Notes: generated from the letters alone by a model not told the origin. Shown: positions 19,149 through 37,633, counted from the first letter of the stretch. The stretch is 64,000 nt of DNA from an uncultured Actinomycetes bacterium (GCA_963725665.1 CAVRZA010000003.1:224001-288000); one strand, 5' to 3'. Made by a program: numbers and translations.

Positions 19149-19329
19149 TTACGCAAGCGCGTCGCGCAGAGCACACGGTGCGGGTGGACGTTCGACGGAT
19201 CGCACCTCGACCTCGCTCGTCCGCGTTTCGTCGCCGTGGCGGTCCGCGGTCTGTGTCGAGGCGGTGCCGGTCGGGTACCTTGTGGCCCAGACGAAGCGGC
19301 GTGAGAAGCGATGAGGAGGTGAGGTCTGC

Positions 19330-19542
19330 TTGGCGTTGACCGTGTATACGAAGGTAGGCTGCACAGCGTGCGAGGCGCTAGTGAGAGACTTGAAGGCGCG
19401 AGACGTGCCGTATCGGCTGGTCGATATCGACCGCTCGCCCGGCGGCGCGCAGGAACTCTCTCACCTGACCGGAGGCAGGCCGACAGTGCCCACCGTAGTT
19501 GACGAGGACGGCGAAGTGCTGCTCGGTTTCGGCAACACCTGA
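19330..19542 (+). CDS. Glutaredoxin-like protein resembling the UXX-star (seleno)protein family
   Basis: YTKVGCTAC (CxxC), TVPTVV, ends GFGNT-TGA. Confidence 0.75.
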   Translation: MALTVYTKVGCTACEALVRDLKARDVPYRLVDIDRSPGGAQELSHLTGGRPTVPTVVDEDGEVLLGFGNT

Positions 19543-19680
19543 GGAGGAGACCGTGGCCTGCGTCGGCGGCTCTGGCTGGCCGAACGCAGGCGTCGGCGCG
19601 CGTGACGCGCTGGATCAACTCACCAAGCGGTGCGCCGCGCAGCGCCAGTGCATCGCTTCGCTGCTCAGGCGCGACCCTAG

Positions 19681-19711
19681 GGGTGGGCGGCAAGGGACGA
19701 GCCGCCCACCC
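19681..19711. terminator. Stem-loop between convergent genes
   Basis: GGGTGGGCGGC-N9-GCCGCCCACCC, 11-bp perfect stem. Confidence 0.55.
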
Positions 19712-19723
19712 TCTATGCGTCGG

Positions 19724-20507
19724 TCACGAAGGCTTGCTCGAATAGGTCGCCACGCGCCTCGCGTGTTCTTCTAGGCCGATCGGACAGGCGTCGTGACAGA
19801 TGAGGCACTCGTGGCTCCCACGCGGCGAGTAGTGTCCCGCCCACTTCTGCCAGGCCTTGTTGGGCTCGGCCAGCATCTCCTGCGGGACGATGCACTTCCA
19901 GAAGTCGACCTTCTTGCCGGGCTCCACGCCTTGCGATGGACCGGGGATGATGGCCCCCGTGGGGCAGGCCCTGACGCACAGCTCGCAGTCGCCACAGAGG
20001 TCCCTCGCGAACGGCTCGTCGTAGGGCAGAGCCGCGTCGGTGACCACGCAGCACCAGCGCACGCGCGGGCCAAGCAGTCGGGGTGACGCACAGGGTCTGC
20101 TTGCCGATCCACCCCAGACCGCCCATCGTGGCGGCGGCCTTCGCGTGCACGAAATGGGTGACGGCAGTCTTGTGCCCGGCGTCTCTCACGGCCTCTGCGA
20201 AGCGGTGAGCGCGGGCCTCGGTCAGCTCGTAGTAGAGATTGTAGTACTGCGATCCCGGCACGTCGTCGAAGGGGATGGCACCGTCGGGCAGCACGGACGT
20301 CACGACGGTGTTGAGCATCGTGTCCCAGATGTGCATGCCGAGCACGATGACGCTCTTCGCACCGTCGAGGAACCCGTTTGGCACCTCCAGGCAGCGATGC
20401 GGCGGAAACGGGACCGCAGCAAGCTTCTCGGCGTCGACGACGCCGAAGAACTCGAACCCATGGTCCGCTGCCTCGGCCCGCAATCGTTCCTTCAGGTCAG
20501 GCGACAC
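19724..20507 (-). CDS. QueG/reductive-dehalogenase-like 2x[4Fe-4S] protein (apparent frameshift near 20078)
   Basis: AKSVIVLG, KAAATMGGLGWIGK, TPxLGPRVR, CGDCELCVRACP, CLICHDACP. Confidence 0.8.
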
Positions 20508-20805
20508 GACACGACCTCACTTCCTCTACGCGCAGTGCGCTGGTCTAGAACCTGTCCACATGATGGCGGGCGCGGCGGCTTCGGTGCGGCCGCCTTCACT
20601 CCCTCGACGCGATCGTTGAGCGTCGAAACGTGCCTGCATGGCGGCATTATAGTCCGCGGTGCGCGGCCGTCTACCTCGCTCCAAGATGCGGGCCGTGGAG
20701 CGCTCCGAGTCCAGGGGCCACGCACACCGTCCTCTGGCAGGGCGCAGCCCGACTCGCTAGACTCCCGCTGCCGCGGTAGGGCCCTCTGCCACCGTGAAGG
20801 TCGCA

Positions 20806-21306
20806 ATGAGGCTCTTCGGCAAACCCGATATCGAGCAGATGAGGCGCGATGGCGACATCGCAGGCCTTGTCCACTGGGCTGACTTCCGTAGGGACCAGAG
20901 CCTGAGTCGCGCCGCGGTAGCGGCTTTGCGCGAGAACGTCTACGCGGTCGTGGAGCGTCTGTTCGACACCGCTGTCTGGGCTCACGCGCACAGGGGGCCA
21001 GGCCGCAGGGGTCTGTCACCTTCGGGGGTGCATCGGCTCAACGAGATCACGGTCGCCTTGCGCAAGATCGGTCCGCCCGCCGTCGCTCCTCTCGCCGATT
21101 CGGTCCGCCTGTACGGCGACTACGGGGACCCCGACGAGCACATGCGATTCCTCTACTTCGCCCTGGTCTTTGACGTGTTGCAGAAGATAGGACGTCCGGC
21201 GGCGAACGAGTTGCGTGACCTCGCCGAAGGCGCAGATCCCGATGTCCGCGAGCATGCGCAGGAGGCGTTGAGCAAGCTCGAAGCACGAGGTCAGCTTGAC
21301 GACTGA
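20806..21306 (+). CDS. Hypothetical HEAT-repeat-like protein
   Basis: LRKIGPPAVAPL, DPDVREHAQEALSKL. Confidence 0.6.
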   Translation: MRLFGKPDIEQMRRDGDIAGLVHWADFRRDQSLSRAAVAALRENVYAVVERLFDTAVWAHAHRGPGRRGLSPSGVHRLNEITVALRKIGPPAVAPLADSVRLYGDYGDPDEHMRFLYFALVFDVLQKIGRPAANELRDLAEGADPDVREHAQEALSKLEARGQLDD

Positions 21307-21519
21307 TGAAGAGGTCGTGGTCGCCGTTCGCGCATCCTGGCCCTCATCGCGGGAGTGGGCGACACTTGCTGCACGGCGGCGGCTGAAGGCCGGCTTGTCC
21401 CCTGCTGTGGCTGCCACGCCGAGCCCCGGCGATCCCTGATCCGGCGTGCCGTAGCCGACGGCACCCGGGCTTGGCAGTGAGGCTCCAGATTGCGCCACAG
21501 CGTCTTCCCTCGCATACCG

Positions 21520-21550
21520 TTGACCGGGGGGTATAGCATTGCAATAGAAT
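21520..21550 (+). promoter_or_regulatory. Possible promoter for mtmBC
   Basis: TTGACC-N19-TAGAAT in an AT-rich patch containing palindrome ATTGCAAT; spacer non-canonical. Confidence 0.3.
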
Positions 21551-21956
21551 TCACGTACACATTGGAGCCGTCACCGGCCGTTCGTTGGACGATGTGTCAC
21601 GGAGCGATTCGACGGGCGGCGAGGCGACTCCAACTGTTAGTTCTGCGTACGGAACCAAGGTTCGAACGCGACGGTTCCGGTCGGCATGCATTGGCGCTTG
21701 ATGGGGCGAGAACGCGATGGCTGCAAGGTCGCAGACGGATCATTCCACGTTGTCTCGAGGTCGCGTTCCCCCGCCCGGGCGGTCTCGAATCGACCGCCTT
21801 CCAGTACGACCACGGTCGTAGAACCTTTTGGCGCAAAGTGCGACAGGAGAGCGAGAGGCGTCGTTGGTCACCGCTCTCACGCCGAGGAGGTGATGTCATC
21901 CCGAGAAGGCTGACCGGCCGAAGGAAGAGCAGTGAATCCCGAAAGGAGGGAGTCAC

Positions 21957-23366
21957 GTGGCGAGAACTACCAAGGCCCTGCCCGAGCGCATGACGGTGTT
22001 TCATGCCTGGGAGCGCGCGCGGAGAGGTCCCAAGGTCGACGAGAAGACGTGGGATTTCGAGGTCATCCCCAAGACGGCGACTCGTCTGAAGGAGAAGTAC
22101 GGGATCAAGATGGACAAGAAGGTCATGATCCCGACCGATCCCGACATCATGAAGCGGCTCTACGAGGCCGGCCTCGAGATGCTCGTCGAGACCGGCGTGT
22201 ACATCATCGAGACCGGCCGTGTCGTGAAGTACACCAAGGATGAGGTGCTCTTCACCGTTGCTCAAGCGCCGAAGCACGCCATCATCGGCGAGGGGGCACT
22301 GCACTACCGGCCGCTCGTACCGAGGGCGTGGAACAGCACGACGCCGCCGATCATCCAGGGCGGCCCGACCGGCGCGCCCTGCAGCGAGCAGCACTTCCTC
22401 GGCATCCACGAGTCGTACGCCAAGGAAGGCATCGTCGACTGCATCGTCGACGGCGTGCTCGAGAAGATCAACGGCTACAACCCGGCCCCGGAGAGCCCCG
22501 CCGAGGTGTGGGCCTCCAAGCAGGAGATGTTCCTGGTCCGCCAGGCCCAGGCCAAGGCCTGTCGCTTAGGGATGGGGTTGTAGGGCGCCGAGACGCCTCT
22601 CGGGGCGGCGGCCATCGTTGCAGCCGATTTTCCCGGCGGCATGCGGGCCACTGACAACCACGAGGTGTCCCAGCTTAATGAGCTGAAGATGGAAGCCGGA
22701 GGCTGGCAATTCGTCGCTCATTACGCACTAGCTGGCGACATCATCATGGATGAGCAGATGCCCATTTTCGGCGGCTTTGCCGGTGGTCTCGAGGAGACGA
22801 CCATCGTCAACGTTGCCACCCACCTCAACGCCTTCGTCATGAACCAGGCGACCTGGCACCTCGACGGACCCGTCCACATGCGCTGGGGCAACACCACCGC
22901 CAGGGAGGTTCTGGCAGTGGCCGGCCACGGCCAGCGGGCGATCGAGGAGCATTGGCCGGATCTCATGACGGGCAACCAGTACTACCCCACCGCCGGCCCG
23001 GGCACCGTGATGTGCCTGCTAGAGACGGCGGCGCAGGCCATCACCGACACCTGCAGCGGGCGCGAAGTGGTGTCGGGCGTCGCGTCGGCCAAGGGCGTGA
23101 AGCTCGACAAGACCACCGGCCTGGAGGCGCGCTTCATGGGCGAGGTCTGCCACGCTGTGGCCGGCATGCCCCTGGACCAGATCAACGAGATCCTCGATGC
23201 TCTGGTGGCCAAGTACGAGGGTGACTACCTGACGGCGGATGAAGGCAAGACCTACGCCGAGTGCTACGACACCGACAAGGTCGTCCCCAACGATGAGTAC
23301 CTGGCAGTGTACGACGAGGCCGTTGCGATCATGAAGGATCTCGGCGTCAGCTACAAACTGTGGTAA
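21957..23366 (+). CDS. mtmB: Monomethylamine:corrinoid methyltransferase MtmB with pyrrolysine (TAG 22581-22583, codon 209)
   Basis: ORFs 21957..22583 and 22641..23366 are in frame; joined reading GMGL-O-GAET..MRATDNHEVSQLNELK matches the MtmB Pyl site; QGGPTG, LDGPVH. Confidence 0.93.
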
Positions 23367-23479
23367 AGGAGCATGTGACTTCAGGCACGGCGAGGATGCA
23401 GGTGTTCTGGTCTGGAACAAGCTCCGCCTCGCCGCGCGGACATCGCCCCGGAGGCCGAGATCGAGGAGGCAAGTGAGCA

Positions 23480-24124
23480 ATGGCAAACGAGGAGTTGATC
23501 AAAGAAGCGCGTGCGGCGCTTCTTACGACCGACAAAGCCAAGGCTGAGGACGTCGCCAAACGAGCCATAGCCGCAGGCATGGATCCGGGCGATATCATGC
23601 AGAATGGCTTCGTCGCCGGCATCCGTGAGCTCGGCGAGAAGTTCGACAAGGGCGAGGTCTTCCTGCCCGAGTTGATGCTTGCGGCCGAGGCCATGGAAGC
23701 CGCCATGGAGATCTGCAACGCGGCCCTGCCCGAGGGCAAGAGCGAGACACGCGGTGTCGTCGTCATCGGCACCGTGGAGGGCGACGTGCACGACATCGGC
23801 AAGGCTGTCGTGATCGCCTATCTGCGCGCCAACGGGTACGACGTCCATGACGTCGGGAAGGACGTGCCGCCGCAGGACTTCATCGACAAGGCGGTTGAGG
23901 TCAACGCCGACGTCATCGGCGCGAGCGCTCTGCTGACGGCCACGCTGGCCGTGCAGGGCGAGATCGAGGAGTACCTCAAGGAGGCCGGCCTACGCGGCAA
24001 GTTCAAGACGATCGTGGGCGGTGCCACCTGCACGCAGGGCTGGGCCGACAAGATCGGAGCCGACGCGTACGCGAAGGATGCCAGCGACGCGCTGCAGAAG
24101 ATCGGCGAACTCGTCGGACGCTGA
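23480..24124 (+). CDS. mtmC: Cognate corrinoid protein (MtmC-like)
   Basis: EVFLPEL, GTVEGDVHDIGK (DxHxxG), SALLT, VGG. Confidence 0.88.
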   Translation: MANEELIKEARAALLTTDKAKAEDVAKRAIAAGMDPGDIMQNGFVAGIRELGEKFDKGEVFLPELMLAAEAMEAAMEICNAALPEGKSETRGVVVIGTVEGDVHDIGKAVVIAYLRANGYDVHDVGKDVPPQDFIDKAVEVNADVIGASALLTATLAVQGEIEEYLKEAGLRGKFKTIVGGATCTQGWADKIGADAYAKDASDALQKIGELVGR

Positions 24125-24160
24125 AGCGGCGTCGAGCTGCAGTAGGATATCAGTGAACAA

Positions 24161-24200
24161 GGGGGCGCCCCGGCCGACGAGAGTCGGCTGGGGCGCCCCC
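24161..24200 (+). terminator. GC-rich stem-loop after mtmC
   Basis: GGGGGCGCCCCGGCCGAC-GAGA-GTCGGCTGGGGCGCCCCC, 18 bp with one G.U; no U-tract. Confidence 0.55.
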
Positions 24201-24256
24201 CCGTATGACAGTCTTCGGACGGATTGCCGGCAAGGTTCGCGCTGAGGAGGGCAGCG

Positions 24257-25483
24257 GTGGCACAGGTCAATGCAGGAGACACAGCCTTCGTCCTCATCAG
24301 CGCCGCCCTCGTGGCGCTGATGACACCGGCTATCGCCTTCTTCTACGGCGGGCTGGTGAGGCGCAAGAACTTCTTGTCGATCATGATGCAGAGCTTCATC
24401 TCGATGGGCATCGTGACGGCCATCTGGGTCGCCGTCGGCTACTCGCTGGTCTTCTCCGGCGATGTCTGGGGCATCATCGGCAACCTCGATTGGGCCGGCC
24501 TACACGGCGTCGGCCAAGCTCCGGGTCCGTGGGCGCCGACCATCCCTGCGCTGGCGCACTTCGACTTCCAGGAGATGATCGCCATCTTCACGCCGGCTCT
24601 GATCACCGGCGCCTTCGCCGATCGGGTGAACTTCAAGAGCTACCTCTGGTTTCTCGTGCTCTGGAGCCTGCTGGCCTACATCCCGCTGGCGCACTGGGTG
24701 CGTGGCGGTGGTTTCCTCGACCAGTGGGGCGCAGAGGACTTCGCTGGCGGCCTGGTGGTCCACGTGAGCGCCGGGTTCGCTGCACTGGCGTCGGTGTACG
24801 TCGTGGGCAAGCGCAGGTTCTTGCCCGGCGAGCGTACGTTGCCGCACAACATCTCTTTCGTGGCGATCGGCACGGCCCTGCTCTGGCTCGGCTGGTTCGG
24901 CTTCAACGGAGGGAGTGCACTGGCGGCCAACGGAATCGCCGCGCAGGCATTCGTGAACACCGACATCGCGGGCTCGATCGCCATGTGCACCTGGCTTGCG
25001 CTCACGTGGCTCCGCAACGGCAAGCCGAGCCTCGTCGGCGCCCTCACGGGAGCGATCAGCGGACTGGTGTGCATCACCCCTGCGGCCGGGTTCGTCCCGA
25101 CCTGGTCGGCATTCGTCTTCGGCGCAGCCGCGGGCGTCGTCTGCTACTACGCGATAGTCGTCAAGCAGAGGATGGAGTGGGACGACGCGCTCGACGTCTG
25201 GGCGGTCCACGGTGTCGGCGGGATACTGGGCACCCTGCTGCTCGGTGTCTTCGGCTTCGCTGCGGTCAATGCCGCCGGCTCCGATGGGCTGTTGGCAGGG
25301 GACGCGGCCTTCTTCGGGGTGCAGCTCGTCTCCGCTGTGATCGCCGCCGGCTACTCCTTCGCGGTGACGTACCTGATCCTCAGGCTGCTCAACCACTTCC
25401 AGCCCGTGCGCGTGCCCGACGCCGTGGAGCAGAGGGGCCTCGACGCCGAGATGCACGGCGAGGAGGCCTACCACCTGACTTGA
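24257..25483 (+). CDS. amt: Ammonium transporter (Amt family)
   Basis: FFYGGLVR, DFAGGLVVH, WFGFNGGS, DDALDVWAVHG. Confidence 0.93.
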   Translation: MAQVNAGDTAFVLISAALVALMTPAIAFFYGGLVRRKNFLSIMMQSFISMGIVTAIWVAVGYSLVFSGDVWGIIGNLDWAGLHGVGQAPGPWAPTIPALAHFDFQEMIAIFTPALITGAFADRVNFKSYLWFLVLWSLLAYIPLAHWVRGGGFLDQWGAEDFAGGLVVHVSAGFAALASVYVVGKRRFLPGERTLPHNISFVAIGTALLWLGWFGFNGGSALAANGIAAQAFVNTDIAGSIAMCTWLALTWLRNGKPSLVGALTGAISGLVCITPAAGFVPTWSAFVFGAAAGVVCYYAIVVKQRMEWDDALDVWAVHGVGGILGTLLLGVFGFAAVNAAGSDGLLAGDAAFFGVQLVSAVIAAGYSFAVTYLILRLLNHFQPVRVPDAVEQRGLDAEMHGEEAYHLT

Positions 25484-25543
25484 GCTGCCCGAAGCCGTGT
25501 TCCCGCGGTGGAAAGCCGCCCGCGACTCCGCTAGCCTGAGCTC

Positions 25544-26338
25544 GTGGAGAGCGAGCTTCCTACCCTGGGAGTCGAGCTTGTCGGCGATGGACTCGGCCCG
25601 TTCGACGACATCGAGTTCATTGGCAGCGGCAGGTTTGCGGAGACGTACCGCGTTGTGCGTGACGACGACGAGTACGTGCTCAAGGTCTGCCACTTCATCC
25701 CGCGCATACCGCAGGAGCTCTGGGAACATGAGCTCGAGGCGCTGCGGCGCGTGAGACACCCGAACGTCATGGCATTCCGCGCCGCAGGGCACCTGCGAGC
25801 CCAGGGCAAGACGTACCCCTTCATGGAGTGCGAGTACATCGACGGCCGCGACGTGAGAGGGATGATCGCCGCCGGGCTGCGACCGGAGGATCCGTCGGCA
25901 CTGCGGGAGTTCTTCGCAGGCCTCCTGCGCGGCGTGGCGGAGCTCCACGACCTGGGCATCCTGCATCGCGACATCAGGCCGGCCAACGTGGCCCTGCGGG
26001 GCGGCCACTGGCAGAAACCCGTGCTGCTCGACTTCGGCCTGGCTCAGACCTACGTCGTCTCGGCGGCGCAGCAGCGCCTCTCGCTGGGCGAGCGGCGGCG
26101 GGATCTTGTTGCCCTCGCCGAGGTCGTGTACGAGGTCGGGGCGGGACGACCTCCCGTCCACGAACCACGGGCCGCCCGGACCCTCGCCACGCGGGTGCGG
26201 CGGCGTGCTCTGGTCGACCCACGCAGGCTCTCGCCGCTGTTCGCGGACGACGTCGCCGAGGTCGTCGTCCGTCTGTTGTCTCGCGGGCAGTCGCGCTCGG
26301 GGGCCGATGAGGCGTTGCGAGAGCTGGAGGAGTCCTAG
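25544..26338 (+). CDS. Hanks-type Ser/Thr kinase-like protein
   Basis: GSGRFAETY, VLK, HPNV, HRDIRPANV, DFG; no APE motif. Confidence 0.8.
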   Translation: MESELPTLGVELVGDGLGPFDDIEFIGSGRFAETYRVVRDDDEYVLKVCHFIPRIPQELWEHELEALRRVRHPNVMAFRAAGHLRAQGKTYPFMECEYIDGRDVRGMIAAGLRPEDPSALREFFAGLLRGVAELHDLGILHRDIRPANVALRGGHWQKPVLLDFGLAQTYVVSAAQQRLSLGERRRDLVALAEVVYEVGAGRPPVHEPRAARTLATRVRRRALVDPRRLSPLFADDVAEVVVRLLSRGQSRSGADEALRELEES

Positions 26339-26431
26339 GGACGATCACGCAGCTCCCGGACCTGGCAACGAATCGCCGTCGCGCGCTCAGAACGCGGCAC
26401 TCGGACGGTGCGTGACAGACAGCACAAGCCG

Positions 26432-26460
26432 TTGCAATGCCCCGGGCCATTGTGTACAGT
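26432..26460 (+). promoter_or_regulatory. Sigma70-like promoter for the permease module
   Basis: TTGCAA-N17-TACAGT. Confidence 0.55.
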
Positions 26461-26711
26461 GCGCGCATCCTCGCACGATACGCCCATCGGGGCCCCAAAG
26501 CCCGCCGTCGAAGGGGGATGGTGTCGTACGGGTCTCTCAGGCTCGATGAGGGGAGGTCGCCAGACGAGAGCTTCCGCACCCAGTGAACGCTGAGGGCTCG
26601 GCAAAAGCTGCCGGCCCCTCACCCGCCTCGCTCTCCCGAAACCGCGCGTCTGTCGCGCCGCCGGAGGAGGTCGGGCGGGCCGACCATTTCGGGCAAGTGA
26701 AAGGGGGACAC

Positions 26712-27125
26712 TTGAGTCGTACCGAAGCCGACCTCGCCGTCGAGCAAGCTGTCGCTGCCGAGGCGAAGAGAGGCACCCACGATCCACGCATCGAGAAGAC
26801 GTACCGACGGGACGTGATCACGATCTACACGTTCGTGATCGCCCTGTTGTTCACACTCTGGGCAGTGTTCTTCTTCGTCGTGAATCCCAACGTCCAGGAC
26901 AACACCCTGCGCTGGCTCATGATCGGCCTGGGCATATTCGCCTCCGTCTTCAACGCCACGGGGATGATCCAGAACACCCGGCGCCTCAAGCAGGAGGCGG
27001 TACGCTTCTACTCCCAGGACCTGTTCTGGCAGGACCAGAAGAAGCTGCAGAAGGAGTACGCGAAACAAGAGCACGAGATGTACCTGAGGCAGAAGAACGT
27101 GGACAAGGGGGCGACCGATGCCTGA
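26712..27125 (+). CDS. Small 2-TM membrane protein
   Basis: TTG start after AAGGGGG; two hydrophobic helices; overlaps next gene. Confidence 0.75.
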   Translation: MSRTEADLAVEQAVAAEAKRGTHDPRIEKTYRRDVITIYTFVIALLFTLWAVFFFVVNPNVQDNTLRWLMIGLGIFASVFNATGMIQNTRRLKQEAVRFYSQDLFWQDQKKLQKEYAKQEHEMYLRQKNVDKGATDA

Positions 27126-27282
27126 ACACGACGACGAGTGGATCCCGTATCAGGGATACCAGGAGCCGAAGCAGCACGTGTTCTGGCAGGTGTTCGATGT
27201 GGTCTTCATCCTGGCCCTCTGCTACGTCTGCCTGCTCGTGCCGATCCTGCTGGCCGGCAAAGTCCTGGTCGGGGGGGACTGA
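27118..27282 (+). CDS. 54-aa single-TM protein (absent from ORF track)
   Basis: MPEHDDEWIPYQGYQEPKQHVFWQVFDVVFILALCYVCLLVPILLAGKVLVGGD; RBS AAGGGGG; mostly G/C-ending codons. Confidence 0.7.
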   Translation: MPEHDDEWIPYQGYQEPKQHVFWQVFDVVFILALCYVCLLVPILLAGKVLVGGD

Positions 27283-27309
27283 TCATGGCTCCTGCGATCA
27301 TGAGAAGGA

Positions 27310-27594
27310 GTGGGTCAGTCCGCCGTGGATGTCGGCAGATTGTGGTTCTCTGTGCTTGCGACCCTGGGCAGCCTGATGATGCTGGCCATCGTCGTAGCCC
27401 CGGCTCTGGCCGCGGGGAAGGTCCCGACGTGGGAGCTCTCGAAGGAGAAGGCCCCCGAGCTGGACTACACGCTCAGTCTCGGCACGGCCGTCCTTACCTT
27501 CGGGCTCCTGATCGCCTTTTTCGTCATGCTCTTCGTGCTGTCGGAGAGGGAGTTCAAGGGCGTGATCAACGAGCGCTTCGGACCGAAGAAGTGA
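27310..27594 (+). CDS. Small membrane protein (start uncertain)
   Basis: Signal-like segment ending APALAA, one TM, SEREFKGVINERFG. Confidence 0.65.
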   Translation: MGQSAVDVGRLWFSVLATLGSLMMLAIVVAPALAAGKVPTWELSKEKAPELDYTLSLGTAVLTFGLLIAFFVMLFVLSEREFKGVINERFGPKK

Positions 27595-27613
27595 GAAGGG
27601 TGGTGTCATCGCT

Positions 27614-27883
27614 GTGAGTATCGAAGAGGTCATGAACTACGTGGCATGGGCGGTGAGCATCGCCATTATCGCGTGGATGGTGATTGACGCCCTGCGCGTC
27701 GAGGTGACCTACGACCGAGACCTGCTCGTCAGCTCGGTAGAAGGCGAGATCGAGAAGGAGATCCTCTCGTCTGACGAGGAAGCCACGCTCAAGAGGCATG
27801 CGTCCGACTGGGCGGCGGAATACACCGAAGTCGAGGCGGAAGCGCGAAAGGCCGAGCAAGCGCCGCCCGGAGGAGGGTCCTGA
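27614..27883 (+). CDS. Small single-TM protein
   Basis: YVAWAVSIAIIAWMVIDA; stop overlaps permease ATG (TGATG). Confidence 0.7.
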   Translation: MSIEEVMNYVAWAVSIAIIAWMVIDALRVEVTYDRDLLVSSVEGEIEKEILSSDEEATLKRHASDWAAEYTEVEAEARKAEQAPPGGGS

Positions 27884-29276
27884 TGGCAGCTGAAGCGCCT
27901 GCGGTCACCGCCGCAAGACCGAAGCGCCTGAGCCTGCTGCGCGTCCTCGGCCCCTGCACATCTGGGGTCTCGGCGTGGGCATCGTGCTCGTGGGCGAGTT
28001 CATGGGTTGGAACTTCACGGTGGCCAAGGGCGGAGTGTTCGGCGCGCTCGTCGCCTGCTGGTTCAGCGGCATCCTCTACTCCTGCGTCGCCATGATCGAC
28101 TCCGAGGTGAGCTCGACGGTGGCCTCGGCCGGTGGCCAGTACGCGCAGGCGAAGCACATCCTCGGCCCCTCGGCCGCCTTCAACCTGGCTCTGTTCATCA
28201 TCTTCGAGTACGTGATGCTCGAGGCCGGCGACGCCATCGTGATCGGCGCCATCATGGAGAAGCTCAGCGCGAACTTCAGCGCGACGGCCTGGGTCATCCT
28301 GACCATCGCCATCCTGTCGTTCCTCAACTACCGCGGCGTGACGTTGGCGCTGACCGTCAACTACATCATCACGGCCATCGCCTTCATCACGATCCTCCTC
28401 CTCCTCTTCGGGAACTGGGGGAACTTCTTCACCCAATACCTATTCACGGCCGATATCGGCGGCAGGAATCCCGAGATGCCGTACGGCTGGCTCGGCATCC
28501 TCGCCGCGCTGCAGTTCGGCATCTGGTATTACCTGGGCATCGAAGGCACCTGCCAGACGGCTGAGGAGTGCCGCTCCGCTCCGCGCGCGCTGCCGATCGG
28601 CACGATGTCTGGGCTCGTCACGCTGCTGATCGCCGCCACCATCACCTGGTACGTCGCTACCGGCCTGGTCGACTGGGTGACGCTCGGATCATCGGCGTAC
28701 CCGCTCTACGACGCGGCGCTGAACACGAGTAAGGACTGGCTCATCGTGGCGCTGTTCATCGGCACTGTGTTGAGCTGTCTGGCGTCGGCTAACGGCTGCA
28801 TCAACGACGCCTCGCGGGCCTGGTTCGCCATGGGACGCGACCAGTTCGTGCCGCGCTTCTTCGGCGGCGTGCACCCGCGCTACAAGACGCCGTACCGCTC
28901 GATCCTGTTTCTGATCCCCATCGCCATGGCCTTCGGGTACACGGGGTTGCTCGACCAGGTGATCACCTTCTCGATCATCTCGGGCTGTTTGATATACGCC
29001 GTCATGCCCCTCAACATCATCCGTTTCCGCAGGCTCTATCCGATGGGCTCCATCAGGCGGGGCTACGTCTACCCCTTCCATCCCTGGCCGGCGTTCGTGC
29101 TCGCTCTCTTCGTAGCGCTCACGTTCATCGCCGTCTACTTCGGCTACTGGCGCAACCTGGTCGGGGCCATGGCCTTCTATATCCTCGCCTCGATCTGGTT
29201 CACCTTCCACCGCTACAGGATGGTGGATCGCTCCAAGCTCTACACCATGCCCTGGCCGCGGCCTAAGGGATACTGA
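27883..29276 (+). CDS. APC-family amine permease, MtmP/Eat-like (apparent frameshift near 27955)
   Basis: Adding one C to the run at 27951-27954 gives LRVLGPLHIWGLGVGIVLVGEFMGWNF; about 12 TMs; WYYLGIEG, HPRYKTP. Confidence 0.85.
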
Positions 29277-29302
29277 GGATCCGGCCGGCAAGGGAGGGCA
29301 GG

Positions 29303-29758
29303 ATGTTCGAGACGATACTAGTAGCAACAGATGGCTCGCACTCGGCGGGGAAGGCCGTCGACTTCGCGGTGGAGCTCGCCAAGAGCCATGGTTCCAAGCT
29401 CGTGATCTGCACCGTCACACGAGAGCGGCTGGCGACGATCGACAGGGACCCCGGCGAGCCCAATCCGCCCGACGTCGACCCGAGAGCATCGCTGAGTCGC
29501 GGTCAGGCCGACCAATCGGCGGAGGTTCTGCGCCGAGGCGAGCAGGCGGCCAAGGCAGCGGGCCTGGGGAACTACGATCTGCGCGAGATCTACGGCACGA
29601 ACACAGGCGCCACCATCGTGAAGGAAGCCGAAGCGATGGGAGCCGACCACATCGTCGTCGGCTCTGTCGGGGAGACCGGCCTCGCCAGGCTGCTCATGGG
29701 TTCCGTGGCGGCGAGCGTGGTGCATCACGCCCACTGTCCGGTGACGGTGGTGCGGTAA
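29303..29758 (+). CDS. Universal stress protein
   Basis: ILVATDGS, IVVGS, LMGSVA, HCPVTVVR. Confidence 0.92.
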   Translation: MFETILVATDGSHSAGKAVDFAVELAKSHGSKLVICTVTRERLATIDRDPGEPNPPDVDPRASLSRGQADQSAEVLRRGEQAAKAAGLGNYDLREIYGTNTGATIVKEAEAMGADHIVVGSVGETGLARLLMGSVAASVVHHAHCPVTVVR

Positions 29759-29800
29759 GTGACTGGAGGGCCACAGCCGCAACACGGCGCGCGGTAGGTC

Positions 29801-30466
29801 ATGGAGTTTGACCTGCTCTGGAAGGGCGCCGTGGTCGCGGCTGTGGCCCTCTTCTTCGTCTGGCGCCTCCTGAGGGTCCAACAAAGCGATCAGGCGACGA
29901 AGGCGCACATGCTCGACGAGCTCCTGCCGGAGGTCGAGCGGGCCGCGTGGACGTGGAGCCCCTGGCATTATCCCCGCCTCGACGGGATGCTTGACGGGTA
30001 TCCCGCTCGCTTCGACCTTCTGTCCGACACCCTTGTGACGCGCTCACTGCCCACGCTCTGGCTACAGCTGCGCTGGGCACTGCCTCACGAGGGCTGCTTC
30101 TGCGTGACCATCGACCCGACCGGCGCCGAGTTCTTCTCCAACGATGCCGACTGCGGTCGCCTTCTGCCGACGCCGAGCTCCTGGGGGGTGAGGGCGGAGA
30201 TCCATGCCGACGGCAGCGGGGGCGCGCTCCTGCGCCGCCTGTCCGCCCTCGATCTGAGCTCCTACCCCTCGGTCAAGCAGCTTTCCGTGGTAGAGGGTGA
30301 GCTCAGGCTGACCGTGCGTTGCGCCCGCGGGGAGCTGCAGATCTACCGGGTGATGCGCGCCGCGAAGTTCCCTCCCGACTGCGTTTCCCCAAGCATCGTG
30401 GCGGAGACGTTGTCTTTGGCGCGTGCGGCCCGAGACGTCCTGACGGCAGAACGAGAGGCGGGATGA
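29801..30466 (+). CDS. Hypothetical protein with N-terminal membrane anchor
   Basis: N-terminal TM, YPRLDG, DTLVTRSLPTLWL; coupled to next gene. Confidence 0.7.
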   Translation: MEFDLLWKGAVVAAVALFFVWRLLRVQQSDQATKAHMLDELLPEVERAAWTWSPWHYPRLDGMLDGYPARFDLLSDTLVTRSLPTLWLQLRWALPHEGCFCVTIDPTGAEFFSNDADCGRLLPTPSSWGVRAEIHADGSGGALLRRLSALDLSSYPSVKQLSVVEGELRLTVRCARGELQIYRVMRAAKFPPDCVSPSIVAETLSLARAARDVLTAEREAG

Positions 30467-31092
30467 GCGCCGGCGCATCACGACCGAAGAAGAAGTCGCA
30501 ACGACCGGCCAGGCCGGCAGGCGAGATCCGCAAGCCTTACCCCGTGTGGCTCGTCACCACCGCGGCCTTCCTGCTGCCGGGCAGCGGCCAGATGCTGAAC
30601 GGTTTTCCCGTGCGAGGGATCATCATGCAGTTCTTCATGATCGTCCTCGGGTTTGTCACGTACAAGATCAGCAGCCCCGACATCTCGTTCATCGGCCGGT
30701 TCGCCGGCGGCATCTTCGTGTACGTCTTCTCGGTCATCGACGCCAACACCGTGGCGAAGCGCGCCATGGCTGCGTGGGAACGGATGGGTGAGGGCGGCGG
30801 CGGAGCCGGGAGCGGGCCCACGTCGTCCGGTCGGCGCCCCAATAAGGATCGAGAGCCGCAGAAAGGCGCCAAACCGTCGCGGCGCCGCGTCCAGGGGGAG
30901 GGCGAGACGCGGCAACGACCGCCGGTGCGGACCAAGCCAACGAAGCCGACGAACCCGACCAAGCCAACGAAGCCGAAGAACTCGACGAACCAGACGAAGC
31001 CAACGAGGCCTCCCGGCGAGCCCCCCCTCAAGGGGGGCGGAGGCGTCCGCGTGGCACTCGCTGCGCGCGGGGAGTCAACAGGAGTGAGCTGA
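30463..31092 (+). CDS. 3-TM membrane protein with low-complexity basic tail
   Basis: LLPGSGQMLNG, SFIGRFAGG; ATGA overlap with previous gene. Confidence 0.7.
   Translation: MSAGASRPKKKSQRPARPAGEIRKPYPVWLVTTAAFLLPGSGQMLNGFPVRGIIMQFFMIVLGFVTYKISSPDISFIGRFAGGIFVYVFSVIDANTVAKRAMAAWERMGEGGGGAGSGPTSSGRRPNKDREPQKGAKPSRRRVQGEGETRQRPPVRTKPTKPTNPTKPTKPKNSTNQTKPTRPPGEPPLKGGGGVRVALAARGESTGVS
30931..31008 (+). repeat. 9-nt periodic coding repeat (TKP/TNP)
   Basis: accaagcca acgaagccg acgaacccg accaagcca acgaagccg. Confidence 0.7.
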
Positions 31093-31170
31093 GCGCCGGC
31101 CGACGCGTCTGCGGATCCGGCCGGCCTGGGTATACTCTTTTAGTACGGCAACGAGCTTGGGACTTCGGAA

Positions 31171-33023
31171 GTGAATGCAGAGGTGTCACCTCCGCACGAC
31201 GCAGGGGACACCTCCGGTAACCCAGATCCCAGGCGGATCGCCCCATTCCTGTCTCACCACCCGCTTCTCGAGGGCCTTAGCCGTGACGATCGCGAGAGAA
31301 TGGCCGAGATGGTCGTCGTGCGTTGCGTGCCGGCGGGCGAGTCGGTCCTCGTCGAGGGCGGGCCGCCAGGTACGTATCTCTTCGTCGTCGTGGAAGGGTC
31401 GATGGAAGTCCTGGCCGGGGGCCTTGTCGTCGACGTGCTGACGAGTGGGGAGGTGTTCGGCGCCCCGACCCTGGTCACGGGTCTTGCCCCAGGGTTCTCG
31501 GTTCGCGCGCGCGAAGGCTCGACGTTGTATCTCGTCCCTCGAGAGGCGGCGATCGAGCTGCTCCTTCGCCCTGAGGGGGTCGCATTCGTGGTGGCGTCCT
31601 TGCGAGACCGGCTCGTTCACACCTCGCGGACGTTCAGATCGGTCGCCGACCCGCGGAGCGTTCCCGTTTCTTCTCTCATCCGTCGCGCGCCTGTCATCTG
31701 CCAGGCCGACACGCCCATTCGCGACGTGGCCATGATCATGAGCCAGGAGGTCGTAGCCGCTGTCCTCGTGGAGACCCGCCAGGGTCTCGGCATCGTCACC
31801 GACGCCGATCTGCGCGACAGAGTACTGGCCGCTGGATTGTCGGCGCATGCTCCGGTCGGCTCGATCACGACCACTCCGGTCCGCACCATCAGCGCCGAGC
31901 GCCTGGCGCCCGAGGCGAGCATCGAGATGATGCAAGCCGGCATCAACCATCTGGTCGTCATCGATGCCGCTGGTGGCGTGCTCGGCATCGTTTCGGCCGG
32001 CAGCCTGATGGCCCCCGATGCGCTGAGCCCCTTCGCTCTGCGCTGGTCGATCCTGGCTGCACGCAGCGTAGACGAGGTCGTCGAGGCGGCCATCCGTCTG
32101 CCAGAGGTGTTCGTCTCACTCACCGACCAGCACCTAGACGCCCCGACGATCTTGCGCGTGGTCACGCTGGTGGTCGACACGCTTACGCGCCGCTTGCTCG
32201 AACTCGCCGTCCGGCAGCTGGGACGGCCGTCTGTTCCCTACGCTTGGCTTGCTCTCGGCAGCGCCGCGCGCAGCGAGCTCACCCTCGTCTCCGACCAGGA
32301 CAACGCGCTGGCCTATGCCGACTCGGACGACCCCTCGGTCGACGCGTACTTCGAGCGACTGGGAGAGGCGGTTAACGATGGCGTGGCACGCTGCGGCTTT
32401 GCGGCCGATCAGTCGGGAGTGCTGGCTCGAGATCCGCACTGGCGCATGTCCCGGTCCGACTGGGTGCATGTCTTCCAGGAGTGCTACGACGTGTGGGACT
32501 GGGAGCACGCAGCGCGGGCCTGCGTGGCCTTCGACTTCCGCTGTATCGACGGCGATCTGGACATCGTGACCCCTCTGACCGAGGTCGTGCTGAGGGCTCC
32601 CGACCATCCCGCGCTGTTGAACCGGCTCGCCCGTTCGGTGGTCGATACACGTTCGCCCCTCGGCTTCCGCCAGCACTTGCCCGATCGGGTTGACATCAAG
32701 AGGAGCGCTCTGCTGCCAATCGAGAACATCGCGCGCTACTTCGCGCTTGCGAATCGGATCACCGTGCCGGCGACGTTGGATCGTCTCACCGCCGTGGAGG
32801 AGCTGGCCATTCTCGAGACCGAGATAGTGATCGCCCTGCAGGAGGCCTACCGCGCCATGGCTCACCTCCGGCTGCGCCACCATGCAGACGCCATCGAGAG
32901 GGGCGACGCGTTGACGACACCATTGACACGACTACGCTACAGCCGTTGGCACGCGTGGAAGTGCACGAGGCACTGCGGCTGATTGCGGCCGCCCAGAAAC
33001 GGGTGCCACTCTACGTGACGTGA
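31171..33023 (+). CDS. cNMP-binding + CBS pair + DUF294 nucleotidyltransferase-like protein, copy 1 (apparent frameshift near 32900)
   Basis: GEVFG, GIVTDADLR, ALGSAARSELTLVSDQDNAL, FDFR, DIK. Confidence 0.85.
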
Positions 33024-33167
33024 GGTCGAACGGCCCTCGCTGGCGGTCGGTGATGCATCCCTTGTCGCAAGTCCGGGCTCGAGGATGCCCGCGATGTGGC
33101 GAGGGGTCGACGCCAGGGTAGACTCAAGATCGCGGCGGCTCCGCGCGAGCGCCCTCCAGTAGCGGGA

Positions 33168-35058
33168 GTGAGTCATGGCCACAGAACGGCCAGCCGAACA
33201 GCGCGACGAGCGCATCGCCTTCTGCTCGACGACGTGCGGCGGATAGCGATCTTCCTGTCGCGAGTGCCTCCGTTCAACGGACTCAACCGGCGCGAGCGCG
33301 AGCGGATAGCCGCCTCGGTCGAGAAGTGGGAGCTGGCGCCGGGAAGCGTCCTCCTCGTCGAAGGCGGCCCGCCGGGCACCCGTCTGTTCGTCGTCTTCGA
33401 CGGTGTCCTCGAGCTGACGACCAGGGGACAGGTGATCGACGTCGTCACGAGTGGCGGTCAGTGGTGGGTCACCCGAGCTCTCGTCACCGGTCTCGCGCCC
33501 GAGTTGACGGTGCGGGCTCGCGACCAGGTCGTTCTTTACGCGATCCCTCGGACGATCGCCATCGACGTGCTCAGCCGCCCGCAGGGGGTCGCCTTCGTGA
33601 CCGGCACTCTGCGCGAGCGGCTCGTGCGCACGGCGCAAATGATCGAATCGGCTTCTGACCAGACGAGCGGCCCGTGTCGTCGCTCATCCGCCGCCCCCCG
33701 TGATCTGCAGCCCCGATACCCCGGTGCGCGAGGCGGCGCGAGATGATGAGCGCCCAAGTCGCAAGCGCCATTCTCGTCGAGACACGCGAGGGTCTCGGCA
33801 TCGTCTCCAACGCCGACTTGCGCGACAAGGTCGTCGCCCTCGGCGTCTCTCCCGACACTCCCGTCAGCTCGATCATGACGACGCCTGTGGTGACCGTACG
33901 CGGCGACCAGCTCGCGACGGAGGCCGGCATCGAGATGATGCGCGCGGGGATCAACCACCTGGTGGTCGTCGACGCGCGCGAACGTGTGCTCGGAGTCATA
34001 TCGGCTGCGAGCCTGATGAGTACGGATGCGCCAGCCCGCTGGTCTTGCGCTCGGCTATTACCGCGGCTCACGATGTGGAGGAGGTCGTTGAGGCGGCGAA
34101 GCTCATGCCACAGGTCTTCGTCTCACTCGTCGATGCGCGTCTCGATGCACCGAGCCGTCTCGCGCATCATCACTCTGCAGAGCGACTCGCTAACGCAACG
34201 TCTTGCTGGAACTCGCCATCGAACGTCACGGTCCGCCGCCTACGCCTTTCGCCTGGCTTGCCCTCGGCAGCGGAGGACGCGGTGAGCTGACGCTGGCCTC
34301 GGACCAGGACAACGCTTTGGCGTACGCGGACTCCGACGACCCGGAGGTCGACTCCTACTTCGAGGGTCTGGCCGCCGACGTCAACGGAGGCTTGGCTCGC
34401 TGCGGGTTCGAGCTCGACGTCTCCGGAGTGCTGGCGAGCGACCACCACTGGCGCATGTCGCGATCGGACTGGGTCAGGGTCTTCAGGGAGTGCTTTGAGG
34501 TCTGGGATCTCGAGCACACGCTGCGAGCCAGCGTTGCCTTTCGATTTTCGCCAGGTCGCCGGTGATCTCGACGTCGTCACTCCGCTCGTGGAGGTGCTTC
34601 TCGATGCGCCAGACCATCCTTCGCTCCTCAACAGGGTCGCGCGGACAGTGACCGACATCCGCTCGCCGCTCGGCTTTCGGCAGCGTCTGACGGGACCAGT
34701 CGATATCAAGAAGAGCGCGCTTCTGCCCATCGAGAACATGGCTCGCTACTTTGCGCTCGCCAACAGGGTGACCGTCTCTGCCACTCTCGACCGTCTCTCC
34801 GCCGTGCAGGAGCTGGGCGGTTTCGGGGCGACGACGGCTGCCGAGCTGCCCGAGGCATACCGGGCGGTGTGGAACCTGCGGCTGCGCCATCACGCCAATG
34901 CCGTTCGCGCCGGTCGTCGCATCGACGACGCCATCGACTCGACCCAGCTTCGCCCACTGACGTACGCGGAGCTGCAGGAGGCCCTGCGGGTCATCGCGTC
35001 GGCTCAGAAGCACGTGCCCGAGATCGTAATGCCGAGAGACATGGAGCGGATGGCGTAG
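33168..35058 (+). pseudogene. cNMP + CBS + DUF294 protein, copy 2, broken by several frameshifts (pseudogene or sequencing errors)
   Basis: Fragments at 33096, 33700, 33743, 34203 and 34495 align in order with copy 1. Confidence 0.6.
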
Positions 35059-35126
35059 CGCGCCCTTGCGAGCGTACGTGGGCCGCAGCTCGCATGTGGC
35101 GGCGTTTGTGATTCAGGTGACATAAT

Positions 35127-35378
35127 GGCTGCACTGAGTCGCGGACTCCGGTTTCCCGATCCGGGCTGGCGCCGGTCGGTGTCCACCTTGCAGGGTGGGA
35201 CGACGCTTAGCACGGCGGCGGGAGGCTCGTTAGGTGAAGGTGCCATCGACACGCCGGCAGAACGGCTCGACGCACTCGAGCTGACCGCGGGCACGGCCTC
35301 GGTCGGCCGCCGCCCCACCCACCTCCTTAGCGAACCAGTCACCCCGGGCTCTACTTACGCAACGGAGGTGTGACCTAA
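35127..35378 (+). promoter_or_regulatory. Structured mtbB leader with anti-SD and anti-anti-SD
   Basis: CACCTCC 35320-35326 is complementary to SD GGAGGTG 35364-35370; 35224-35242 can pair alternatively with 35320-35336; CATAAT at 35121. Confidence 0.5.
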
Positions 35379-36779: not shown

Positions 36780-36834
36780 CGCGCAAGGCGAGAGCCCCAG
36801 GGTTGACGCAATCCGATTGTTGGAGGTCACAGGC

Positions 36835-37479: not shown

Positions 37480-37633
37480 CCGGTCGGTCCGGTCGGATGA
37501 CGAGCGGCGCGGCCCGAGGCGAGAGTCTCGCCTCGGGCCGCGCCCGTGGACGGTGGGCAAGGCGCCATTTCGGGGACTGGAGGCGCAGGTCGGGTGCTGG
37601 AGGCTCGAGCGGTCGGTGGCCTGGAGATACGCG

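What the first reader, a model, noticed from the sequence alone, without database searches (positions are those of the whole stretch)
21957..23366. mtmB is one 469-aa gene with amber at the Pyl site
Seen: two ORFs in frame with a single TAG at codon 209, reading GMGL*GAET. Known: Methanosarcina barkeri MtmB has Pyl202 in the context GMGV-O-GPET. The other breaks in this window are indels, so this substitution-type stop at the homologous site is unlikely to be an error.
Basis: partly seen in the sequence, partly recalled or inferred. Interest (0 to 1): 0.85.

Follow-up and report, generated by a model that had tools for sequence, protein, structure and literature searches.

The report
Pyrrolysine-coding mtmB gene in an actinobacterium
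The two adjacent reading frames are one methylamine-methyltransferase gene whose internal "stop" codon sits exactly where the rare 22nd amino acid pyrrolysine belongs, a well-known kind of recoding seen here in a seldom-reported soil bacterial host.

Summary
Observation confirmed and interpretation supported. Window 21957-23366 (+) is one 469-codon mtmB gene with a single in-frame TAG at codon 209 (22581-22583). It matches Pfam MtmB end to end. The TAG aligns with Pyl202 of Methanosarcina barkeri MtmB1.

The genome carries a tRNA-Pyl (CUA), split PylSc and PylSn, and PylB, PylC and PylD. Orthologues in two related genomes (73% and 66% identical) keep the TAG. The part after it is under purifying selection, with dN/dS 0.19-0.24.

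The gene heads an mtmB-mtmC-amt unit. This lies in a ~22-kb methylamine island inserted between trmD and rplS, which also holds a Pyl-type mtbB and a methyl-THF:corrinoid methyltransferase.

Genome-wide, 14 methyltransferase genes carry TAG at the canonical site. Yet TAG ends about 38% of long ORFs and RF1 is present.

Bacterial Pyl-mtmB is already in print, as is Pyl-type mttB/mtbB in Actinobacteriota (PMC3941956, PMC10805028). This scan has also noted TAG-mtmB in other actinobacterial genomes. Verdict: a new member of a known kind, of modest interest.

The parts
21957..23366 (+). mtmB, Pyl-type monomethylamine:corrinoid methyltransferase; 469 codons, GTG start, Shine-Dalgarno-like AAGGAGG upstream
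   Evidence: PF05369 E 3e-190, model positions 1-449 of 450. PDB 1L2Q/1TV2 E about 1e-151. dN/dS 0.19-0.34 in both halves.
22581..22583 (+). TAG codon 209, the inferred pyrrolysine codon
   Evidence: Aligns to X (Pyl202) of M. barkeri MtmB1. The same column is TAG in 10 other Pyl-type loci aligned. TAG pairs with TAG in G019 and G032.
22581..22680 (+). Sub-threshold similarity to Rfam PYLIS_1, starting exactly at the TAG; probably reflects coding-sequence homology
   Evidence: 57.8 bits against a gathering score of 70. Fold z-score -1.22, with 28 of 200 shuffles folding as well. Orthologues score 79.6 (G032) and 46.1 (G019).
23480..24124 (+). mtmC-like cognate corrinoid protein (214 aa) with a DVHDIG (DxHxxG) cobalamin-binding motif
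   Evidence: B12-binding_2 plus B12-binding domains. TIGR02370 pyl_corrinoid 228.9 bits, cut-off 215.3. Sequence. A corrinoid gene also follows mtmB in G019 and G032.
24224..25483 (+). Amt-family ammonium/methylammonium transporter, third gene of the unit
   Evidence: PF00909 E 3e-111. TIGR00836 418 bits, cut-off 343.
35379..36779 (+). Pyl-type mtbB (dimethylamine methyltransferase) with TAG at 36438-36440, in the same island
   Evidence: PF09505 660.7 bits with 1 TAG. The N-terminal part matches the model to position 353. TAG lies in the motif DGL-O-VG shared by all 8 genomic copies.
36438..36537 (+). Rfam PYLIS_2 match starting at the mtbB TAG
   Evidence: 89.3 bits, gathering score 36.
36817..37479 (+). 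mtbC-like corrinoid protein, paralogue of the mtmC-like gene
   Evidence: TIGR02370 223 bits. About 70% nucleotide identity to 23480-24124.
37825..39501 (+). APC-family permease matching the NCBIfam trimethylamine N-oxide permease model
   Evidence: NF053774 747.8 bits, cut-off 690.
40225..41139 (-). Pterin-binding methyltetrahydrofolate:corrinoid methyltransferase; inferred second step, methyl-corrinoid to THF
   Evidence: PF00809. NF005719 294 bits, cut-off 259.
19149..41190 (.). About 22 kb of inserted methylamine-utilisation DNA between trmD (18465-19148) and rplS (about 41195-41530)
   Evidence: rplS lies 45-1393 nt after trmD in 23 of 24 relatives; the 24th contig ends too soon to tell. 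GC is 64-67% here against 70-77% in the upstream flank and 68% genome-wide.

Best explanation
Window 21957-23366 is a single functional mtmB gene. Its UAG at codon 209 is decoded as pyrrolysine by the genome's own tRNA-Pyl(CUA), charged by a split bacterial-type PylRS (PylSc plus PylSn) with Pyl made by PylB, PylC and PylD. Decoding competes with RF1 termination. The full-length enzyme transfers the methyl group of monomethylamine to the Co(I) corrinoid of the adjacent MtmC-like protein and releases ammonium. The methyl group then passes to tetrahydrofolate through a pterin-binding methyltransferase such as the one in the same island. RamA/RACo-type activases encoded elsewhere in the genome re-reduce the corrinoid when it becomes oxidised. 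The co-transcribed Amt transporter most likely imports methylammonium or handles the released ammonium. Shown here: gene integrity, the homologous position of the TAG, its conservation in orthologues, purifying selection downstream of it, and the presence of all Pyl parts. Inferred: actual Pyl insertion, the substrate, the THF route, the direction of Amt transport, and conditional rather than constitutive read-through.
For: The gene matches PF05369 over the full length and is about 53% identical to the solved M. barkeri MtmB1, with the TAG on Pyl202.

The Pyl machinery is complete and every protein part scores above its NCBIfam cut-off: PylSc 314.6 bits, PylSn 119.9, PylB 448.3, PylC 338.7 and PylD 211.6. 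The tRNA-Pyl has a CUA anticodon, a 6-bp anticodon stem and a 3-nt variable loop, and it is the only CUA tRNA among 52 found.

Orthologues in G019 (73% identical) and G032 (66%) keep the TAG, and both genomes have PylSc. dN/dS downstream of the TAG is 0.24 and 0.19, and upstream 0.34 and 0.29. GC3 is 0.85 downstream.

A cognate corrinoid gene follows mtmB here and in both orthologous loci. A methyl-THF:corrinoid methyltransferase lies in the island, and two RACo_C_ter activase genes are in the genome.

Thirteen further methyltransferase genes (8 mtbB, 5 mttB) carry TAG at their canonical motifs.

Contigs of four public soil, peat and wetland runs cover the site, with no listed difference there.
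Against: There is no proteomic or biochemical evidence: Pyl insertion and monomethylamine specificity are inferred from homology.

TAG is a common stop in this genome, ending about 38% of roughly 2000 GC3-filtered long ORFs. Back-up stops are not enriched after TAG (median 49.5 codons to the next stop, against 46.5 after TGA), and RF1 is present. Some translation must therefore end at codon 209, and how read-through is kept specific is unknown.

The PYLIS_1 match is below Rfam's threshold and the fold is no more stable than shuffled sequence.

The difference table from the laid contigs was truncated to 40 of 287 rows, so identity at the TAG is not strictly proven there.

The assembly carries frame errors elsewhere.

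The actinobacterial MtmB clade sits apart from the characterised archaeal enzymes, at 42-53% identity, so a related substrate is not excluded.
Confidence: 0.92

Rival explanations
1. The gene is a pseudogene: mtmB inactivated by a nonsense mutation that happens to lie at the Pyl codon.
For: The assembly and window contain other disrupted genes. TAG is an ordinary, frequent stop in this genome and RF1 is present.
Against: The stop falls on exactly the one codon of 469 that is TAG in all 10 other Pyl-type loci aligned. Orthologues at 66-73% identity keep it. The 260 codons after it are under purifying selection (dN/dS 0.19-0.24) and contain no further stop. The full Pyl machinery is present.
Confidence: 0.02
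2. The TAG is an assembly or sequencing error, and the real gene has a sense codon there, making it a non-Pyl MtmB.
For: Earlier scan notes and my own checks suggest a long-read assembly with indel errors.
Against: The errors I saw are frame changes, not substitutions. Contigs of four other public runs cover the site with no listed difference. Independent genomes G019 and G032 have TAG at the same column. The genome's real non-Pyl MtmB paralogues are only 27-29% identical and lack the GMG-x-G motif.
Confidence: 0.02
3. The gene is Pyl-decoded, but its substrate is a methylated amine other than free monomethylamine.
For: The actinobacterial sequences form their own clade, outside the Methanosarcinaceae and Methanomassiliicoccales clades, together with unnamed metagenome proteins. 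They are 42-53% identical to archaeal enzymes. In G019 the gene follows carbamoyltransferase and amidinotransferase/DDAH-like genes.
Against: The Pyl-flanking motif and the full-length fit to the MtmB model are conserved. An Amt transporter, a family long assayed with methylammonium (recalled knowledge), is in the same unit. The G019 neighbours fit a route that releases monomethylamine from methylarginine just as well.
Confidence: 0.08
4. These are two separate genes, a naturally split MtmB made of 208-aa and 241-aa polypeptides.
For: Table 11 gives two ORFs, and the second has an ATG at 22641.
Against: The 19 codons between the TAG and that ATG encode residues conserved with the solved enzyme (GAETPLGAAAIVAADFPGG against GPETSLSAQGNISADCTGG). 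The Pyl position itself would be lost. I did not look for a ribosome-binding site before 22641.
Confidence: 0.01

Closest known systems
Methanosarcina barkeri MtmB1 (PDB 1L2Q, 1NTH, 1TV2-4), the founding pyrrolysine protein
   Same: Full-length homologue (E about 1e-151, about 53% identity). UAG at the aligned position of Pyl202 in a GMG-x-O-G-x-ET motif. A cognate corrinoid protein gene follows it.
   Different: The host is a 68% GC bacterium with split PylSc/PylSn rather than an archaeon. No coenzyme M branch is expected; a THF methyltransferase lies in the island instead. TAG ends about 38% of long ORFs here, whereas Pyl-using methanogens use amber rarely (at most 11% in Methanomassiliicoccales; PMC3941956, passages read). 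The PYLIS_1 score is below threshold.
Bacterial Pyl-type mtmB of Acetohalobium arabaticum and Desulfotomaculum acetoxidans (named in PMC3941956, introduction passage read)
   Same: A bacterial mtmB with an in-frame amber codon in a genome that carries the pyl genes.
   Different: Those hosts are Firmicutes; this one belongs to Actinomycetota. I did not fetch or align those two sequences. The one Bacillota-labelled locus I did align (L097, Tissierellaceae contig) nests inside the Methanosarcinaceae clade, away from the actinobacterial clade.
Pyl-encoding mttB and mtbB expressed by Actinobacteriota MAGs in a thawing permafrost mire (PMC10805028, passages read)
   Same: Same phylum, same peat/wetland type of habitat as the runs that hold this sequence, and the same Pyl-dependent methylamine demethylation theme.
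   Different: That paper's main text does not contain the word mtmB (0 occurrences). Its supplements were not examined. I make no claim that this genome comes from that study.
Olavius algarvensis delta-1 symbiont pyrroproteome (PMC1976440, passages read)
   Same: A bacterium with many Pyl methyltransferase genes and a split PylS.
   Different: That symbiont had 8 such genes (6 MtbB, 2 MttB, no MtmB). This genome has 14 with a canonical-site TAG: 1 MtmB, 8 MtbB and 5 MttB.

Membership tests
Pyl-dependent MtmB (Pfam PF05369, monomethylamine:corrinoid methyltransferase) | Full-length match to the MtmB family model above its gathering score | tested here: met
   633 bits against a cut-off of 25; model positions 1-449 of 450.
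Pyl-dependent MtmB (Pfam PF05369, monomethylamine:corrinoid methyltransferase) | In-frame UAG at the position homologous to Pyl202 of M. barkeri MtmB1 | tested here: met
   Codon 209 aligns to the X of GMGVXGPET, chain residue 202. It shares a column with the TAG of 10 other Pyl-type loci.
Pyl-dependent MtmB (Pfam PF05369, monomethylamine:corrinoid methyltransferase) | Host genome encodes pylT, PylRS and pylBCD | tested here: met
   All five protein families score above their NCBIfam cut-offs on contig C6. tRNA-Pyl(CUA) found by ARAGORN. The genes sit at two places about 47 kb apart rather than in one cassette.
Pyl-dependent MtmB (Pfam PF05369, monomethylamine:corrinoid methyltransferase) | Sequence downstream of the UAG is translated (under protein-level constraint) | tested here: met
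   dN/dS 0.24 (G019) and 0.19 (G032) over 259-260 codons; amino-acid identity 72-73%.
Pyl-dependent MtmB (Pfam PF05369, monomethylamine:corrinoid methyltransferase) | Adjacent cognate corrinoid protein (MtmC type, DxHxxG) | tested here: met
   TIGR02370 228.9 bits against 215.3; DVHDIG motif. Also adjacent in G019 and G032.
Pyl-dependent MtmB (Pfam PF05369, monomethylamine:corrinoid methyltransferase) | Pyrrolysine physically present at the UAG position, and monomethylamine:corrinoid methyl transfer | not testable with these tools
   Needs mass spectrometry and an enzyme assay.
Rfam PYLIS_1 (RF01982) | Covariance-model score at or above the gathering score (70 bits) | tested here: not met
   57.8 bits at 22581-22680. 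The G032 orthologue scores 79.6 and G019 46.1.
Rfam PYLIS_1 (RF01982) | A stem-loop downstream of the UAG more stable than chance | tested here: inconclusive
   MFE -51.3 kcal/mol, z -1.22, with 28 of 200 shuffles folding as well. Several non-canonical pairs appear in the model alignment.
Non-Pyl MtmB homologues (sense codon at the Pyl site) | A sense codon at the Pyl202-equivalent position | tested here: not met
   The gene has TAG there. The genome's true non-Pyl paralogues on C11 and C4 are 27-29% identical.

The most novel reading that the evidence does not exclude
This Actinomycetota lineage may carry one of the largest bacterial pyrroproteomes yet seen: 14 methylamine methyltransferase genes with a canonical-site UAG. 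It shows no genomic accommodation to amber read-through. TAG still ends about 38% of long ORFs, back-up stops are not enriched, RF1 is retained, and the pyl genes are scattered. Pyl decoding would then have to be tightly conditional or dependent on mRNA context. The mtmB unit arrived as part of a ~22-kb methylamine island dropped into the otherwise invariant trmD-rplS junction. That would mark recent lateral spread of Pyl-dependent methylamine use among peat and soil actinobacteria, which compete with methylotrophic methanogens for methane precursors.
Probability: 0.4. Interest if true: 0.55.

Novelty: new member of a known kind. Interest (0 to 1): 0.3.

Why it matters
Standard gene callers cut this gene in two, so methylamine-using capacity in soil and peat actinobacteria goes under-counted. 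In my protein search the full-length relatives were few, and many hits were half-length fragments of about 260 residues. Bacteria that demethylate mono-, di- and trimethylamine without making methane draw on the same substrates as methylotrophic methanogens. Correct annotation therefore bears on wetland methane budgets (theme of PMC10805028). The genome also offers a natural case of heavy Pyl use alongside heavy use of UAG as a stop, which suits the open question of how bacteria keep amber read-through specific. The gene itself adds no new principle.

Tried and rejected
1. The PYLIS element as an explanation for specific read-through. The Rfam hit is sub-threshold and the fold is no better than shuffles. 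Scores across loci fall with sequence divergence (103.7, 96.6, 79.6, 57.8, 46.1 bits), as expected if the model mostly tracks conserved coding sequence.

2. Searches for flanking direct repeats or att-like sites at the island borders found nothing convincing, only paralogue-derived repeats.

3. The promoter and terminator scan of 21200-25700 gave 0 promoter-like sites and 2 terminator-like sites, no more than in shuffled sequence. No riboswitch or other Rfam family reached its gathering score in the window apart from PYLIS_2.

4. My first k-mer frame picker chose wrong frames for the non-Pyl paralogues (L002, L003, L019, L020). I dropped those rows and redid the comparison with tblastn.

5. 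My first dN/dS run used an alignment offset by one residue and gave meaningless values. It was replaced.

6. The sixth 'MttB with 1 TAG' row (C1:36714-38156) has its TAG at residue 12, not at the Pyl motif. It was excluded from the count of Pyl genes.

7. WhiB as an actinobacterial marker was not found in this genome. The phylum was inferred indirectly from WhiB in 33 of 61 sampled phylum-mates. I could not verify the class label Thermoleophilia, which comes from earlier notes.

8. The genome-contig scan returned almost only Methanosarcinales loci and did not name the host.

9. Depth and coverage in the laid contigs do not measure expression. Contigs from an RNA library (X13) lie on the gene, but the tool warns that this does not show transcription.

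10. The ~2.8 kb upstream of mtmB (19150-21950) gave only a glutaredoxin and a 4Fe-4S domain fragment, probably from a frame-shifted gene on the minus strand. No regulator was identified.

Full report
**The observation.** The stretch 21957-23366 (+) opens with GTG, 7 nt after an AAGGAGG-type ribosome-binding site, and ends with TAA at 23364-23366. Read with TAG as a residue it gives 469 codons with one internal stop, TAG at codon 209 (22581-22583), in the context GMGL-TAG-GAET. Under table 11 it appears as two same-frame ORFs, 21957-22583 and 22641-23366.

**Identity of the gene.**
- The read-through protein matches Pfam MtmB (PF05369) over model positions 1-449 of 450, at 633 bits.
- It matches M. 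barkeri MtmB1 (PDB 1L2Q, 1NTH, 1TV2-4) at E about 1e-151. In that alignment codon 209 falls on the X of GMGVXGPET, chain residue 202 by my count.
- In a MAFFT alignment the TAG shares one column with the TAG of 10 other loci: two related genomes (G019, G032), seven Methanosarcinaceae loci and one Tissierellaceae-labelled contig. Four further rows in that call were mis-framed non-Pyl paralogues and were dropped.
- tblastn then showed the genome's non-Pyl MtmB paralogues to be 27-29% identical, with no stop and no GMG-x-G motif at that place.

**Is the TAG read through?**
- The genome (3.73 Mb, 12 contigs, 68% GC, 97.5% complete, 5% contamination) has one tRNA with anticodon CUA among 52 tRNAs. 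ARAGORN calls it tRNA-Pyl, and it shows a 6-bp anticodon stem and a 3-nt variable loop.
- PylSc, PylSn, PylB, PylC and PylD are all present above their NCBIfam cut-offs on contig C6. They lie at two sites about 47 kb apart: pylB-pylC-pylD-pylT in one place, and pylSc and pylSn flanking a corrinoid-protein gene and a radical-SAM gene in the other.
- The split PylS is the bacterial arrangement described in PMC9630628 (passage read).
- The orthologues in G019 (same family, 73% identical) and G032 (same class, 66% identical) keep TAG at the aligned codon, and both genomes encode PylSc.
- Nei-Gojobori dN/dS is 0.34 upstream and 0.24 downstream of the TAG against G019, and 0.29 and 0.19 against G032. 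The downstream 260 codons are therefore at least as constrained as the upstream ones, which a terminated gene would not show.

**Check against other sequencing data.**
- Twenty public runs from 11 studies hold part of the stretch, all soil, peat, wetland or sediment metagenomes or metatranscriptomes.
- I laid the Logan contigs of four of them (soil, peat, wetland, soil RNA) on 21800-24200. All four have depth over the bin that holds the TAG.
- Two records bridge the site with more than 31 letters on each side: X5 no. 18 (22259-22682) and X6 no. 26 (22287-22939).
- None of the 40 best-supported difference rows lies on 22581-22583. A nearby variant, 22567 T>C (Leu204 to Ser, the residue that G019 has), is listed with strong support.
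- The table shows only 40 of 287 rows and these are contigs, not reads. This supports the TAG but does not prove it.

**Surroundings.**
- mtmB is followed by a 214-aa corrinoid protein (TIGR02370 above cut-off, DVHDIG motif) and an Amt transporter.
- A corrinoid gene also follows mtmB in G019 and G032. In G032 the cluster runs mtmB(TAG)-mtmC-mtbB(TAG)-URO-D-type methyltransferase-(unassigned ORF)-pylSc-radical SAM (likely pylB). A transporter, a corrinoid protein and an mttB with TAG lie further on.
- In the window the unit lies in a ~22-kb block between trmD (18465-19148) and rplS (about 41195-41530). The block also holds a Pyl-type mtbB (35379-36779, TAG at 36438-36440, with an Rfam PYLIS_2 hit of 89 bits), its corrinoid protein, a permease matching the TMAO-permease model, and a methyl-THF:corrinoid methyltransferase on the minus strand.
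- In 23 of 24 related genomes rplS begins 45-1393 nt after trmD; the 24th contig ends too early to tell. The block is therefore an insertion in this lineage. Its GC (64-67%) is below that of the upstream flank. I found no border repeats.

**Genome-wide picture.**
- Eight mtbB copies carry TAG in the motif DGL-O-VG, and five mttB copies carry it in AG(A/L)-O-GD. With mtmB that makes 14 genes. A sixth mttB row has its TAG at residue 12 and was excluded. One mtbB copy also shows a frame break near its end.
- TAG nevertheless ends about 38% of about 2000 long ORFs selected by GC3 of at least 0.80 and GC1 exceeding GC2 (874 of 2284, 760 of 1992 and 539 of 1430 at three length cut-offs). The distance to the next in-frame stop is no shorter after TAG than after TGA. 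This is a rough count without a gene caller.
- RF1 is present above its cut-off.
- Read-through must therefore compete with termination. By analogy with other Pyl-using bacteria it is probably limited by regulated expression of the pyl genes; this is inferred, not shown.
- The PYLIS_1 similarity at 22581-22680 scores 57.8 bits, below the gathering score of 70, and its fold is not more stable than shuffles. Scores across loci fall with divergence. I read it as coding-sequence homology.

**Host.** A tmRNA, split PylS and RF1 mark a bacterium. WhiB was not found in this genome or in four class-mates, but was found in 33 of 61 sampled genomes of its phylum, and in Corynebacterium alone among the 14 controls. 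Three of those genomes (G041, G057, G085) are unpublished; without them the count is 30 of 58. This points to Actinomycetota. The class name Thermoleophilia comes from earlier scan notes and I could not verify it.

**Phylogeny.** In a maximum-likelihood tree of 21 sequences the three actinobacterial MtmBs cluster together (support 88/99; this genome with G019 at 100/100). They sit with three unnamed metagenome proteins (58-60% identical) outside both the Methanosarcinaceae and the Methanomassiliicoccales clades. All Pyl-type sequences are separated from non-Pyl homologues at 99/99. The root is a midpoint only, so no donor is claimed.

**What is known.**
- Pyl-type mtmB in bacteria is in print for Acetohalobium arabaticum and Desulfotomaculum acetoxidans (PMC3941956, passage read).
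- A 2022 survey found PylRS in two Actinobacteria among 81 bacterial genomes (PMC9630628, passage read; repeated in PMC11764691).
- A 2023 peatland study reports Actinobacteriota MAGs expressing Pyl-encoding mttB and mtbB. Its main text does not contain 'mtmB' (PMC10805028; supplements not seen).
- My searches for pyrrolysine with Thermoleophilia, Actinomycetota, Actinobacteriota, or Actinobacteria plus mtmB found nothing more specific.
- This scan has already noted TAG-mtmB in other actinobacterial genomes, and a Pyl methylamine island in one.

**Verdict.** The finding is correct and well supported. It is a new member of a known kind. The points of some interest are the host, the size of the Pyl gene set alongside heavy use of TAG as a stop, and the island's insertion into the trmD-rplS junction.

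Noticed in passing
window 19149-41190: About 22 kb of methylamine-related genes is inserted between trmD and rplS. These two genes are adjacent (45-1393 nt apart) in 23 of 24 related genomes. GC is lower than in the upstream flank, and no border repeats were found.
   Followed up: yes
window 35379-36779, with TAG at 36438-36440: A second recoded gene in the window: Pyl-type mtbB with an Rfam PYLIS_2 match of 89 bits starting at its TAG. It is followed by a corrinoid protein (36817-37479) and a permease matching the NCBIfam TMAO-permease model (37825-39501).
   Followed up: partly
genome G000 (contigs C1, C2, C3, C4): Fourteen methyltransferase genes carry TAG at the canonical Pyl motif (1 mtmB, 8 mtbB, 5 mttB), beside about 25 non-Pyl MttB-family hits. 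TAG ends about 38% of long ORFs and RF1 is present.
   Followed up: partly
window 11306-14913 and 33096-35058: smc is split between two overlapping frames, and a second cNMP/CBS/DUF294 gene (a tandem paralogue of 31171-32982) lies in at least three frames. These are frame-change breaks consistent with indel errors of the assembly.
   Followed up: partly
window 17427-17963: rpsP (S16) ends with TAG, and the next gene (KhpA-type KH domain) lies in the same frame directly after it. Amber read-through would fuse the two proteins.
   Followed up: no
L131 (G019:C3) 6274-10498: In the related genome G019 the TAG-mtmB and mtmC pair follows an ornithine/aspartate carbamoyltransferase gene and an amidinotransferase/DDAH-like gene. 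This hints that methylarginine breakdown may supply the monomethylamine there.
   Followed up: no
L130 (G032:C12) 451-14017: In G032 the three Pyl-type methyltransferase genes (mtmB, mtbB, mttB, each with one TAG), their corrinoid proteins, a URO-D-type methyltransferase and pylSc with a radical-SAM gene (likely pylB) form one compact cluster. In G000 these genes are scattered.
   Followed up: partly
genome G000 and class-mates G025, G027, G028, G029: WhiB (PF02467) was not found in this genome or in four genomes of its class, although 33 of 61 sampled genomes of the phylum have it, usually in several copies.
   Followed up: no
window 19724-20516 (-): The GC-phase plot suggests one minus-strand gene with a frame change near 20030-20060. 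Its C-terminal piece has a 4Fe-4S domain weakly similar to the reductive dehalogenase/QueG type. A glutaredoxin ORF lies at 19315-19542. The roughly 600 nt before mtmB show no coding signal.
   Followed up: partly
L097 (Tissierellaceae-labelled contig, 2011 nt): Its TAG-mtmB nests inside the Methanosarcinaceae clade in the tree. The short contig may be a binning contaminant or a recent transfer.
   Followed up: no
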